Source: Auanema rhodensis (taxonomy: Eukaryota; Animalia; Nematoda). From it: a DNA stretch of 64,000 bases. The position numbers and the translations under genes are program-made. The notes under the pieces were generated by a model. That model was not told the DNA's origin. It ran no database searches and was given only the letters and a program-made list of their open reading frames with translations. Below are positions 1 to 64,000 of this stretch, one piece after another. The stretch lies in contig OZ059896.1 in NCBI GenBank assembly GCA_964057225.1, forward strand, positions 15,686,001 to 15,750,000, written 5' to 3'. Every line of letters begins with the position of its first letter. Within the stretch, counting starts at the first letter, position 1.

Positions 1-3000
1 GGGGAAAGGAGACAACATTTCCTTTCTCTCTTACTTTCAGAAAAACGCCATGTCCTGGAATATCCAAAAGGTTTATCGTAATCGTTGTATAATACACTTT
101 TGTTTCCAAGCTTCTTGTCGGAAAGTGATCCGAAACCAAAAATAAATAAACCAGTCATGTTCAGTAGTTCAGAATTCAAAATGTGAAACTGGTTGAAAGC
201 TTGAAGTAAAGAAAGGTATATGTTTCAACTCTTCTGTTACTCTTGTCATTGATATGTTCGAAGAAAAATGAATGATCCTCTGCACGAGGCCCCGGAACGG
301 ATTGAAAATTCATGAAGAAACATTCGGAAACATTCGATGTTCTTCGTGCAGATGTTGTAACCTTTATGTGAATGTAACTTTCTAAGAAAGAAAGATCAGA
401 ATGAAAACCTGAATAACAAGAGAAGCATTCCATGTTTTTGTTTCAAATGAATTTAAATTCAGAATTTGATAATCCTCTAAAGGAGAGTGAGATATAGTAA
501 CCAAAGGATCAATATGAACTAAAATAATATAAATTTGGAAAATAAAAGCAAAACACAAGAACCATCTTTTAGAAGACCTTTTATCTTAATAGGCTTTTTG
601 GTATTCTGAACTCTGCAAGACTTATTATAAGAAAAATATACTGGAAATAGATTTTACTTGATAATCTCCAAGTTTTCCGTTTTAATTTGAACATCTAAAG
701 TTCCACTATTTATCAAATTATCTATATTATCAATATAATAATATAAATTTTCTTCAAAACAAATGATATTTAAGATAAAATTATCTTTAGACGATATCTG
801 TTTGATATTTAAATCATCAAGTTCGGCTGGAAATTTCAACTGAAAATTGAAGTTTTGAAGTATTTATCTGGATAGTAGGCTCTGACTTCCCAATTCATAC
901 AATGATGTTCTCGTTTCAGAACAGAGTTTTCATTCCCTCCTGCTAGTATAAGCTGCCCCCCTTGAGCCTCTTTAGACTGAAAACCAAAATTATTGAAAAA
1001 ACTAAAAGCATATGGCCTCATGACTGACATCATAGTAGAATGGAAAACCTTGCGACTCGACTAGTGTCTCAGCTAACGAATCCATCATACTATTCAAAGT
1101 TGAAACCAATTGATTTACCAAATCTTTACTCTAAACCAACATGCATGTGTTATTCAATTAACAAAGAAACTGACTATTTGCTTCTGAACAAGACGTGTAG
1201 CTTCGAAAGACCATTCTTCATCACTGTATTCTTCAACATATCGTATATCATCTGAAGTTATTTGTCAAACCACAGTATTATTCAAACCTTAACCTGGATA
1301 TTCTGGTAAAGGATTAAATATTTCGTTAAAATTAGTTTTTTCATAGTTCAAATTTCGAGAAACATCACTGGCTAATGGATTATTCCAATTATTTTTCAAT
1401 GCTTTCAATATTGATGAAGATACTTCTAATGTTTTCCCTGATATCTGAAACATTTGTATTGTTATGTAAATAAAATTTATGAATTCAACAGATTTAATCT
1501 CTTCTTCAGTTAATTCTTTGGACTCGAACATCTTTTGAATATTACCAAGAGTTTTACTCATATATTCAAATGATTTTTGACTTGTTAGCGATTGAACAAC
1601 AATGTCTGGAACACAAATATCTTATCAGAATAATTGTAACCAGATCAAAACCTAAACTCGTTTCAGCAAATTCAGCCGATGGATAGATTTTAGCACCATT
1701 TATTAGGATTCCATATGTTTCATTTCTAATCAGTATACCTGACTCTACATCTATACTTCCAGACTCGAATTCGAGTCGACTCCTATAAGTCAAATTGAGA
1801 TTTTCCTTCGAAAAATGAATATAATCTAACCAGTCATGTGATTCTGAATACTTTGAGTACATATATGAAGAAATTGTGAGAAAGTTCAATGAATCATAAA
1901 CTTCCAGCTTTACATGAATATCATATAAAATGATATGATTAACATCATTTTCCCATAAAATCATATATGTATCATATAGCTCTACTGTCCAAATCCCTGA
2001 TAGTTCTAACGTGTCGTCTAGTAAAACCTAAATGAACGAATAGATTTTATATGAAAAATTCTCTTTCATTACATTTCCTTTAACCACAACATTTTGATGA
2101 TTTTGAAGATTTCTATTTATTTCTTCAAAAGATTTTGGGAACTCAATCGAGAAAGAAGTCATTTTTATATTTTGATAACTGCGAGATATTTCAGGTAAGC
2201 GTGAATCTAAATTGAAAATTTAAAACAACTTGTTTGATGAGCACGAAATACTTGGTAAACGGGTGGAAACAGTTGGCGGGAAGTATGTAGAAGATTCGAT
2301 AAAGATTGTGTGGTATCCTGTAAGATTTGAATTCAACCAAGTGAGATCTACATCTGGAATAAATAGAGTTAGCAGATTATTATACAATAAACATGCTTTC
2401 AAAAATCAATATTGAATCAAACATTTGAAGAATTCGAGGATTAATTGGCAAGCATTCGATTACACTACCAGTTATGGTAAATGATCCTGATTTTCCACGA
2501 GATTTTAAAAAATTGAAATAGCCATTACTACAATTGCTAATTATTGATTTTTAATAAATGAAAAAATAGAAAAACCTTAACTTTATTGAATAATTCACTT
2601 CAGAGAATAATATTTGAAATATTAAATTAAAAACTGGTGTCTTAATACCGTTTTTCATATTAGAAAACGTGGAATTTGCAATCTAAATCTGATTAATATT
2701 GTTTTATCTTTTCTCTTACATTGATTGTTATAGTTAATTCATATACAGGTAAGATTCCACTAATTGTAACATCTTTACTTTTCTTTTTGAATTGGTTTTC
2801 TGAAGTCTTCGATACATTCCAAAGCTTGAAACCACTTGAACTCTCAACCATATTATCCATGTTTATCTGAAATTCACAAGAATTCTTAAATAACGAGATG
2901 AAAAACAAGCCGTTGTTTCATTGAATAAATCAACTGTCCAACTATCTCTGATCAATATTCGAGATTGATAAAAGGATTGATATGCTGTTATGTTGATAGA

Positions 3001-62000: not shown

Positions 62001-64000
62001 TGATATCTGAAACATTTGTATTGTTATGTAAATAAAATTTATGAATTCAACAGATTTAATCTCTTCTTCAGTTAATTCTTTGGACTCGAACATCTTTTGA
62101 ATATTACCAAGAGTTTTACTCATATATTCAAATGATTTTTGACTTGTTAGCGATTGAACAACAATGTCTGGAACACAAATATCTTATCAGAATAATTGTA
62201 ACCAGATCAAAACCTAAACTCGTTTCAGCAAATTCAGCCGATGGATAGATTTTAGCACCATTTATTAGGATTCCATATGTTTCATTTCTAATCAGTATAC
62301 CTGACTCTACATCTATACTTCCAGACTCGAATTCGAGTCGACTCCTATAAGTCAAATTGAGATTTTCCTTCGAAAAATGAATATAATCTAACCAGTCATG
62401 TGATTCTGAATACTTTGAGTACATATATGAAGAAATTGTGAGAAAGTTCAATGAATCATAAACTTCCAGCTTTACATGAATATCATATAAAATGATATGA
62501 TTAACATCATTTTCCCATAAAATCATATATGTATCATATAGCTCTACTGTCCAAATCCCTGATAGTTCTAACGTGTCGTCTAGTAAAACCTAAATGAACG
62601 AATAGATTTTATATGAAAAATTCTCTTTCATTACATTTCCTTTAACCACAACATTTTGATGATTTTGAAGATTTCTCTTTATTTCTTCAAAAGATTTTGG
62701 GAACTCAATCGAGAAAGAAGTCATTTTTATATTTTGATAACTGCGAGATATTTCAGGTAAGCGTGAATCTAAATTGTAAATTTAAAACAACTTGTTTGAT
62801 GAGCACGAAATACTTGGTAAACGGGTGGAAACAGTTGGCGGGAAGTATGTAGAAGATTCGATAAAGATTGTGTGGTATCCTGTAAGATTTGAATTCAACC
62901 AAGTGAGATCTACATCTGGAATAAATAGAGTTAGCAGATTATTATACAATAAACATGCTTTCAAAAATCAATATTGAATCAAACATTTGAAGAATTCGAG
63001 GATTAATTGGCAAGCATTCGATTACACTACCAGTTATGGTAAATGATCCTGATTTTCCACGAGATTTTAAAAAATTGAAATAGCCATTACTACAATTGCT
63101 AATTATTGATTTTTAATAAATGAAAAAATAGAAAAACCTTAACTTTATTGAATAATTCACTTCAGAGAATAATATTTGAAATATTAAATTAAAAACTGGT
63201 GTCTTAATACCGTTTTTCATATTAGAAAACGTGGAATTTGCAATCTAAATCTGATTAATATTGTTTTATCTTTTCTCTTACATTGATTGTTATAGTTAAT
63301 TCATATACAGGTAAGATTCCACTAATTGTAACATCTTTACTTTTCTTTTTGAATTGGTTTTCTGAAGTCTTCGATACATTCCAAAGCTTGAAACCACTTG
63401 AACTCTCAACCATATTATCCATGTTTATCTGAAATTCACAAGAATTCTTATATAACGAGATGAAAAACAAGCCGTTGTTTCATTGAATAAATCAACTGTC
63501 CAACTATCTCTGATCAATATTCGAGATTGATAAAAGGATTGATATGCTGTTATGTTGATAGATGTATCATAAACGCCATTCATATGGATAGTAGTAGTCG
63601 GTGAACTTTGAATAAGAGTAAGTTCCACACTTGGACTTAGTGACAGCCCTGCTTGAATATATCCATAGAACCATAAAGTGTTATTTCTCACCGAAATCTA
63701 ATAATCTATCGTGTTTCTTTTTTCTAATAAAATTAATAAATAATACCATTCCATCTGATATAACATATGTATTTCCATTACTATGTATAATTCCATATGG
63801 AAGTGCATACGATCCTACGAATTCTGATATATCCTTAATCAACAAAATAATTACAAAATTTGAAGTTTGCTATAGCTGGTTAGAGAGTGAACCAGTGCTT
63901 GTAGATCACCTTTATCAAATCAATATGAAAACCATTGCTGAAATCTAAAGAATCCAAGAGATAATTCAGTGTTGTTAACAATGTATCATATGACTGGATT
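56036..64000 (-). CDS. Polycystin-1-like gene copy F, 3' portion (REJ/GAIN-like region to channel); 5' end lies beyond the window
   Basis: Colinear copy with GPS, PLAT and channel exons. Confidence 0.88.

What the first reader, a model, noticed from the sequence alone, without database searches (positions are those of the whole stretch)
1..64000. At least six near-identical, apparently intact ~10.5-kb PKD1-like genes in a head-to-tail array
Seen: the array fills the window and continues at both ends. In the exons I spliced (N-terminus, mucin, GPS to C-terminus) I found no exonic stop or frameshift. The indels I saw between copies are intronic, intergenic or multiples of 3. Known: PKD1-like genes are usually dispersed single-copy paralogues, and the human PKD1 duplicates are partial pseudogenes. 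Inference: this is a recent amplification or concerted evolution with selection keeping the copies coding.
Basis: partly seen in the sequence, partly recalled or inferred. Interest (0 to 1): 0.75.

Follow-up and report, generated by a model that had tools for sequence, protein, structure and literature searches.

The report
Six-copy nematode mating-receptor gene array
A roundworm genome carries six back-to-back copies (five intact) of a transcribed polycystin-1 gene related to LOV-1, the single male mating sensor of C. elegans, and because the copies are almost identical in the channel part but differ at the outer tip, they likely give the animal several versions of one sensor.

Summary
The array is real but finite: exactly six head-to-tail genes (10.5-11.0 kb, period 11.8-12.4 kb), ending 4.6 kb left and 5.2 kb right of the window. 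Contig depth is 5.3-6.8 times single-copy flank in three DNA runs, and RNA runs show spliced transcripts of at least two copy types. A 56-exon model gives a 2,636-2,740-aa protein (signal peptide, small domain, Ser/Thr stalk, GPS, PLAT, TOP, 11 TM), intact in five copies; the sixth has a 1-bp frameshift just outside the window. The host is a nematode and the gene is a faster-evolving duplicate of LOV-1; one conventional lov-1 and one pkd-2 lie elsewhere on the contig. No Pfam REJ match was found. The copies evolve at two speeds: body 99.8% identical (pN/pS 0.27), N-terminal domain up to 15 of 142 residues different (pN/pS 1.15), mucin stalk in two types. Mosaic variants and an old, diverged edge favour gene conversion over a single recent burst. 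The pattern resembles tunicate s-Themis-B/B2. Diversifying selection on the tip is suggested but not shown (P 0.07); function is untested.

The parts
1..6088 (-). Copy A, 5' part (ATG 6088; gene runs on to -4522, outside the window); intact, 2,686 aa
7681..18141 (-). Copy B, complete LOV-1-type polycystin-1 gene, 56 exons, 2,636 aa (reference model)
19735..30315 (-). Copy C, intact, 2,676 aa
31909..42681 (-). Copy D, intact, 2,740 aa
44274..55036 (-). Copy E, intact, 2,737 aa
56043..64000 (-). Copy F, 3' part (ATG at +67,006 outside the window); 1-bp deletion in the mucin exon at about +64,739 in the assembly
17502..18141 (-). Exons 1-5 of copy B: signal peptide and ~140-aa cysteine-containing N-terminal domain; most variable coding part between copies
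16407..17418 (-). Ser/Thr mucin repeat (30-bp units) of copy B; others at 4204-5369, 28461-29592, 40635-41958, 52999-54314; 356-525 aa, two types (A/D/F and B/C/E)
11877..12142 (-). GPS motif of copy B: both cysteines and the His-Leu-Thr site align with C. briggsae LOV-1
11203..11688 (-). PLAT domain exons of copy B
   Evidence: (PF01477, E 1.7e-4 on one exon)
7998..10090 (-). TOP/polycystin domain and six-helix channel part of copy B
   Evidence: (PF20519 over cut-off on two exons; PF00520 E 2.4e-4)
7640..7663 (.). 24-bp sequence at the unit junction; same sequence at 19694, 31868, 44233, 56002 and at both ends of the array (-4563, +69170)
18773..19300 (+). Spliced head-to-head transcript in the spacer with an 84-aa Thr-rich ORF and hydrophobic start; copies start at 6720, 30947 (nonsense at codon 65), 43313, 55668 (truncated) and +67638
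55905..55908 (.). About 590-bp deletion in the spacer of copy E; the joint is seen in RNA run X11 and DNA run X7

Best explanation
This is a six-gene tandem array of a transcribed nematode LOV-1-type polycystin-1 duplicate whose channel-bearing body is nearly identical between copies while the outer N-terminal domain and mucin stalk differ, and it likely works as a set of ciliary receptors that present several tip variants on one constant channel module, probably in male mating neurons together with the single PKD-2. Shown: six copies, five intact, splicing, domain order, LOV-1 homology, two-speed variation, mosaic variants. Inferred from sequence: the first duplication used the 24-bp sequence shared by both ends; unequal crossing-over and gene conversion have since kept the body uniform, while exchange is weaker across the length-variable mucin repeat and tip variants have been tolerated or favoured. 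Inferred from C. elegans LOV-1 (PMC9829181): self-cleavage at the GPS, release of the N-terminal part, assembly of the 11-helix part with PKD-2, and a role in contact and pheromone sensing by males.
For: Six matches only, all on one contig, for two DNA probes and one protein probe. Depth ratio 6.8 (X4, 8,713-bp contig vs 4,423-bp flank contig), 5.3 (X7), 5.4 (X6); junction contig 5.4x; E-specific deletion joint 1.08x in X7. 15 GT/GC-AG introns listed from RNA contigs of 2 of 2 runs, 41 further joints not shown; alleles of both A/D/F and B/C/E type in RNA. Nematode: 94 cuticle-collagen N-domain matches, an SL1-like RNA cluster below the Rfam cut-off. Only database hit is in the C. briggsae LOV-1 cluster; copy B aligns to CBR-LOV-1 over 1,761 columns, 29.5%, 787 bits; 11 hydrophobic segments, GPS intact. 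Variable sites 32 of 701 (N-terminal) vs 23 of 8,257 (body), P 7e-22. pN/pS 1.15 vs 0.27; replacement:silent 30:5 vs 6:5, P 0.043. 329 of 861 site pairs incompatible, Rm 9. Edge spacer 30-32 of 398 different.
Against: Positive selection is not shown: 23 of 386 replacement sites vs 9 of 312 silent and intron sites, P 0.068, and several changes sit in the same or adjacent codons, so they are not independent. Two pairs share the same N-terminal domain (B=C, D=F), so there are four variants, not six. The post-mucin linker and spacer are also more variable than the body, as a simple conversion barrier would predict. Copy F is frameshifted in the assembly. The array lineage has drifted further from Caenorhabditis LOV-1 than the single paralogue (198 vs 112 unique sites), so its role may differ from that of LOV-1. 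No sex- or tissue-resolved expression, cleavage or localisation data.
Confidence: 0.5

Rival explanations
1. Same real array, but the tip variation has no function: the length-variable mucin repeat blocks gene conversion locally and the N-terminal domain is under weak constraint; the array, if selected at all, is selected for dose.
For: pN/pS 1.15 is not different from 1; variation is also raised 3' of the repeat (9 of 472) and in N-terminal introns (5 of 218); identical tips in B/C and D/F.
Against: Variation peaks in exons 2-5 (replacement sites 6.0%) above their introns (2.3%) and above the first 860 bp of the spacer (0.2-1.8% pairwise); cysteines and frame are kept in all six N-terminal domains.
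Confidence: 0.35
2. A neutral or decaying copy-number expansion of a dispensable duplicate, on its way to pseudogenes.
For: Frameshift in copy F; nonsense change and deletion in two spacer ORFs; zero nonsense changes in the body is expected by chance with P 0.25.
Against: Replacement changes in the body are depleted (P 0.013); transcripts are spliced over the whole gene; the first duplication is old, yet five copies are intact.
Confidence: 0.11
3. Assembly artefact: one or two real copies, with haplotypes or reads stacked in tandem.
For: The body is 99.8% identical; only contig-level depth was available, which the tool warns is not a copy number; P1 and P2 contain runs that may be the source of the assembly.
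Against: Depth 5.3-6.8x flank in runs of three studies, one of them (P3) without a possible source run; junction-spanning contig at 5.4x; copy-specific deletion at single-copy depth; four distinct N-terminal types and six different mucin lengths.
Confidence: 0.04

Closest known systems
Caenorhabditis LOV-1 (polycystin-1; CBR-LOV-1, P0003; C. elegans work in PMC9829181, PMC11968823)
   Same: Homologous over 1,761 aligned columns (29.5%); GPS, PLAT, TOP, 11 TM; Ser/Thr-rich N-terminal part; no Pfam REJ match in either.
   Different: C. elegans has one lov-1 (PMC9829181, Discussion heading); this genome has one conventional lov-1-like gene plus six tandem copies of a faster-evolving duplicate with variable tips.
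Single lov-1-like paralogue of the same genome (G000:C4, about 13.782-13.794 Mb)
   Same: Same domain order with a Ser/Thr stalk; 38.5% identity to copy B; 32 of 39 intron positions shared in the aligned part.
   Different: Single copy; closer to CBR-LOV-1 (34.5%, 912 bits vs 787); its N-terminal domain shows no detectable similarity to that of the array (score reached by 486 of 500 shuffles); no match to the spacer ORF nearby.
Ciona s-Themis-B / s-Themis-B2 (polycystin-1-like self-sterility receptors; PMC7018956)
   Same: [quoted passage not shown]
   Different: Themis has REJ, is a sperm protein, is highly multi-allelic, the pairs lie about 70 kb apart, and the partner lies in intron 1. Here: six adjacent copies, at most 10.6% tip difference, a short Thr-rich ORF outside the gene that varies little and is broken in 2 of 6 units; no function shown.
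Tandem arrays under interlocus gene conversion (e.g. Drosophila Sdic PMC7475035, Arabidopsis halleri HMA4 PMC3749932; search listing and abstract start only)
   Same: Head-to-tail near-identical genes with mosaic divergence.
   Different: Other gene families; the evolutionary mechanism itself is well known.

Membership tests
Polycystin-1 / LOV-1 type | GAIN/GPS motif before the first TM helix | tested here: met
   PF01825 E 0.022 on one exon, below cut-off; both cysteines and His-Leu-Thr align with CBR-LOV-1
Polycystin-1 / LOV-1 type | 11 transmembrane segments | tested here: met
   11 hydropathy peaks after the GPS at a threshold of 1.6
Polycystin-1 / LOV-1 type | PLAT domain after TM1 | tested here: met
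   PF01477 22.7 bits (cut-off 23) on one 54-aa exon; aligned to CBR-LOV-1
Polycystin-1 / LOV-1 type | TOP (polycystin) domain and channel part | tested here: met
   PF20519 over cut-off on two exons and in all six copies; 36% identity over 532 columns to P0001
Polycystin-1 / LOV-1 type | Closest to nematode LOV-1 rather than PKD-2 or vertebrate PKD1L | tested here: met
   1 hit among 15 candidates, in the cluster of CBR-LOV-1; own-genome PKD-2 matches only weakly. No tree with vertebrate PKD1, PKD1L1-3 or PKDREJ was built
Polycystin-1 / LOV-1 type | Self-cleavage, ciliary location, assembly with PKD-2, role in male mating | not testable with these tools
   known for C. elegans LOV-1 (PMC9829181); one pkd-2 found in this genome
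REJ-bearing polycystins (PKD1, PKDREJ, SpREJ, s-Themis) | REJ module (PF02010) | tested here: inconclusive
   0 of 52 exon-level queries, no match at the array in the genome search, none in full-length CBR-LOV-1; short exons weaken the test and a remote REJ-like fold is not excluded
Themis-type recognition locus | Duplicates near-identical except for a variable N-terminus | tested here: met
   the variation is moderate (at most 15 of 142 residues)
Themis-type recognition locus | Polymorphic ligand gene in intron 1, opposite strand | tested here: not met
   opposite-strand ORF lies upstream, differs at few residues and is broken in 2 of 6 units
Themis-type recognition locus | Many alleles in the population and a self/non-self phenotype | not testable with these tools
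   only simplified contigs, possibly of one strain, were available
Tandem array under concerted evolution | Mosaic sharing of variants and an edge older than the interior | tested here: met
   329 of 861 incompatible pairs, Rm 9; edge spacer 30-32 of 398 vs 1-3 of 399 among inner copies

The most novel reading that the evidence does not exclude
A nematode counterpart of the tunicate Themis locus: six LOV-1 receptors with diversified tips, each co-amplified with a head-to-head secreted Thr-rich peptide, used to tell mates, kin or self apart.
Probability: 0.1. Interest if true: 0.85.

Novelty: new variant of a known kind. Interest (0 to 1): 0.5.

Why it matters
What the large outer part of polycystin-1 senses is open, and it is not known whether LOV-1 is a direct sensor (PMC9829181). 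Here nature has made four tip variants on one constant channel body in a nematode, which points to the first 160 residues and the stalk as the specificity-bearing part and allows copy-by-copy swaps. If the tip is under diversifying selection, this is a second, independent case of the s-Themis-B/B2 design and a candidate mate-recognition locus. If not, it is an ordinary but well-documented tandem array with a local conversion barrier.

Tried and rejected
Protein searches with the post-mucin linker (0 of 450 candidates) and one PLAT exon (0 of 12) found nothing; both are weak tests. The solved-structure search returned only PKD2 and PKD2L1 chains for a 31-aa exon; uninformative for placement. 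A second gene-finder run with a lower intron penalty over-called introns (72 exons; exonic lengths did not fit RNA contigs) and was dropped; one run timed out. The F frameshift was not listed in 4 of 4 runs laid on copy B, but contigs drop minority variants, so this says nothing either way. No run was on record as RNA; the four 'RNA?' runs are guesses, and two were accepted as RNA because introns are skipped and 13 of 30 bins are empty on the flank. A test of replacement vs silent-plus-intron counts between 5' part and body (P 0.0002) was rejected because the two regions differ in intron content. No donor for the tip variants was found elsewhere in the genome. A likeness of the spacer ORF to C. 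elegans cwp genes is recalled only; the one paper found (PMC11304975, passages) lists CWP-1 as a cytosolic vesicle cargo and gives no support, and the ORF had no Pfam match. A wide profile search for LOV-1 relatives could not be run, so copy number in other nematodes and a rooted tree are open. Earlier scan findings concerned other genomes and other architectures.

Full report
Observation. Self-comparison shows a head-to-tail repeat with periods of 12,054, 12,174, 12,365 and 11,769 bp. Two DNA probes and one protein probe find six close matches in the genome, all on contig C4. With 40 kb of flank on each side, the array runs from about -4,563 to +69,200 in window coordinates. It therefore holds exactly six genes, four wholly inside the window, and does not continue further.

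Reality of the copies. Fifteen public runs from four studies hold the stretch; three are flagged as a possible source. I laid five runs, none of them flagged (X4, X6, X7 as DNA; X11, X13 as RNA), although X4 and X7 share a study with a flagged run. In X4 one 8,713-bp contig over the gene body has depth 242.1 and the 4,423-bp single-copy flank contig 35.6 (6.8x); in X7 the ratio is 5.3 and in X6 5.4, length-weighted over the 8 and 6 listed contigs. A contig across the unit junction has 5.4x flank depth, and the deletion peculiar to the spacer of copy E appears as a joint at 1.08x in X7 and also in X11. The tool warns that contig depth is not a copy number, so I read this as 5-7 copies. All runs may be of one strain; variation between individuals was not tested.

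Gene model. RNA contigs of X11 and X13 skip 15 listed GT/GC-AG introns of 37-76 bp; 41 more joints were not shown. A splice-aware script, edited by hand at seven places using those joints, contig lengths and family motifs, gives 56 exons and 2,636 aa for copy B. Exonic bases per 319-bp bin match what RNA depth implies within 3 bases in 24 of 26 bins for at least one run; since some edits used these figures this is a fit, not a fully independent test. The intron at 12,143-12,237 is uncertain. The 11-bp third exon and the 5' exons are supported by a contig of X13. Projected on all six copies, splice sites are canonical and A-E are open (2,636-2,740 aa). F has a 1-bp deletion in the mucin exon at about +64,739 and stops after 694 codons. 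Alleles of both the A/D/F and the B/C/E type are present in RNA contigs.

Identity. The genome has 94 matches to the nematode cuticle collagen N-domain and a cluster of SL1-like RNA genes below the Rfam cut-off. Exon-level Pfam hits are GPS, PLAT, polycystin domain and ion transport. The only protein hit belongs to the cluster of C. briggsae LOV-1; the spliced model aligns to it over 1,761 columns at 29.5%, keeps both GPS cysteines and the His-Leu-Thr site, and has 11 hydrophobic segments. No REJ match was found. The genome search found one pkd-2 (C4, 13.25 Mb) and one other lov-1-like gene (C4, 13.79 Mb); these counts are lower bounds. That gene, from a rough model, is closer to CBR-LOV-1 (34.5%, 912 bits), shares 32 of 39 intron positions with copy B, and has 112 unique sites against 198 for copy B. 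I infer that it is the conventional lov-1 and the array a faster-evolving duplicate; no rooted tree was built.

Two speeds. The body (15,937-7,681) has 21 substitutions and 2 small intron indels in 8,257 bp; the N-terminal 701 bp have 32 variable sites (P 7e-22). Copies differ at up to 15 of 142 residues in the N-terminal domain and at most 6 of 1,974 in the body; mean pN/pS is 1.15 and 0.27. There are four tip types (A, B=C, D=F, E), and E is a mosaic. The mucin part is 356-525 aa long and of two types. Replacement sites in the tip vary more (23 of 386) than silent and intron sites (9 of 312), but P is 0.068 and changes are clustered, so positive selection is not shown. In the body, replacement changes are depleted (P 0.013), whereas the absence of nonsense changes is uninformative (1.4 expected).

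History. The same 24-bp sequence lies at all five junctions and at both ends, which suggests that the first duplication used it (inference). The spacer beyond copy F is the ancestral flank: it holds the last exon of a spliced Ly-6-related gene, most of which is deleted in the inner spacers. Its outer part differs from inner copies at 30-32 of 398 bases while inner copies differ at 1-3. The first duplication is thus much older than the 99.8% identity of the body implies. Of 861 pairs of informative sites 329 are incompatible with one tree, needing at least 9 exchanges. Gene conversion and unequal crossing-over fit this better than one recent burst.

Mechanism. In C. elegans LOV-1 is cleaved at the GPS, its C-terminal part travels with PKD-2 to cilia and vesicles of male neurons, and it is needed for contact response, vulva location and a pheromone response (PMC9829181: abstract, passages and first part of the Discussion read; PMC11968823: passages). 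By homology I expect the same processing here. The most likely reading is a set of receptors with one constant channel module and several tips (0.5); the main rival is that the tip variation is a by-product of a conversion barrier at the mucin repeat plus weak constraint (0.35). If the F frameshift is real it would give a secreted tip-and-stalk fragment; a 991-aa N-terminal LOV-1 fragment is described as dominant negative in PMC9829181.

Comparison and novelty. The gene is a member of the LOV-1 type by all sequence features tested. The two-speed pattern matches Ciona s-Themis-B and B2, described as almost identical except for the N-terminal hypervariable region (PMC7018956, passages only). Each unit here also carries a spliced opposite-strand transcript with a short Thr-rich ORF, but it lies upstream, varies little and is broken in two of six units, so the Themis membership test fails on that point. 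Searches for a duplicated or expanded lov-1 in nematodes returned nothing relevant in the listings (20 of 30, 2 of 2, 0 and 3 of 3 papers listed); gene-family tables in supplements were not searched and may hold it. Verdict: real, better described as six LOV-1 duplicates with a variable tip; new variant of a known kind; interest 0.5.

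Noticed in passing
window -4825..-4774 (L004 5176-5227) and +69225..69277 (L005 5225-5277): A 53-bp sequence (96% identical) occurs only twice in the genome, once at each end of the array; its order relative to the 24-bp junction sequence is swapped between the ends. On the left it lies in an intron of a chemoreceptor-like gene, on the right in an intron of the Ly-6-related gene. Possibly a templated insertion; unexplained.
   Followed up: partly
L005 4577-7419, minus strand (window +68,577..71,419): Spliced Ly-6-related gene (PF06579, E 1e-9); a remnant of its last exon is carried in the inner spacers, e.g. 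window 7405-7442.
   Followed up: yes
L004 4537-5404 (+) and L004 1500-2680 (-): Left flank holds a serpentine chemoreceptor-like gene (Srab/Sre, below cut-off) tail to tail with copy A, and a HAD-family hydrolase gene (PF13344).
   Followed up: partly
window 12143-12237: RNA contigs break at both ends of this 95-bp intron; a 24-bp in-frame micro-exon or alternative acceptor just before the GPS is possible.
   Followed up: no
window 17868-17878: An 11-bp micro-exon, seen in an RNA contig; at least two GC-AG introns in the gene (14557-14599, 15070-15113).
   Followed up: yes
window +82,190..83,683 (L006/L007): A 1.5-kb tandem repeat with units about 85-91% alike, 13 kb right of the array.
   Followed up: no
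G000:C3 6.74-7.10 Mb: Large cluster of SL1-like RNA genes at about 252-bp spacing, all below the Rfam gathering score.
   Followed up: no
G000:C4 13.25, 13.79 and 15.68-15.76 Mb: pkd-2, the single lov-1-like gene and the array all lie within 2.5 Mb on one contig; an EGF-repeat-like gene lies just upstream of pkd-2 (L011 6340-7500, read by eye).
   Followed up: no
G000:C7:8021437-8021691: The only REJ-family match in the genome, weak (E 5e-4), unrelated to the array.
   Followed up: no
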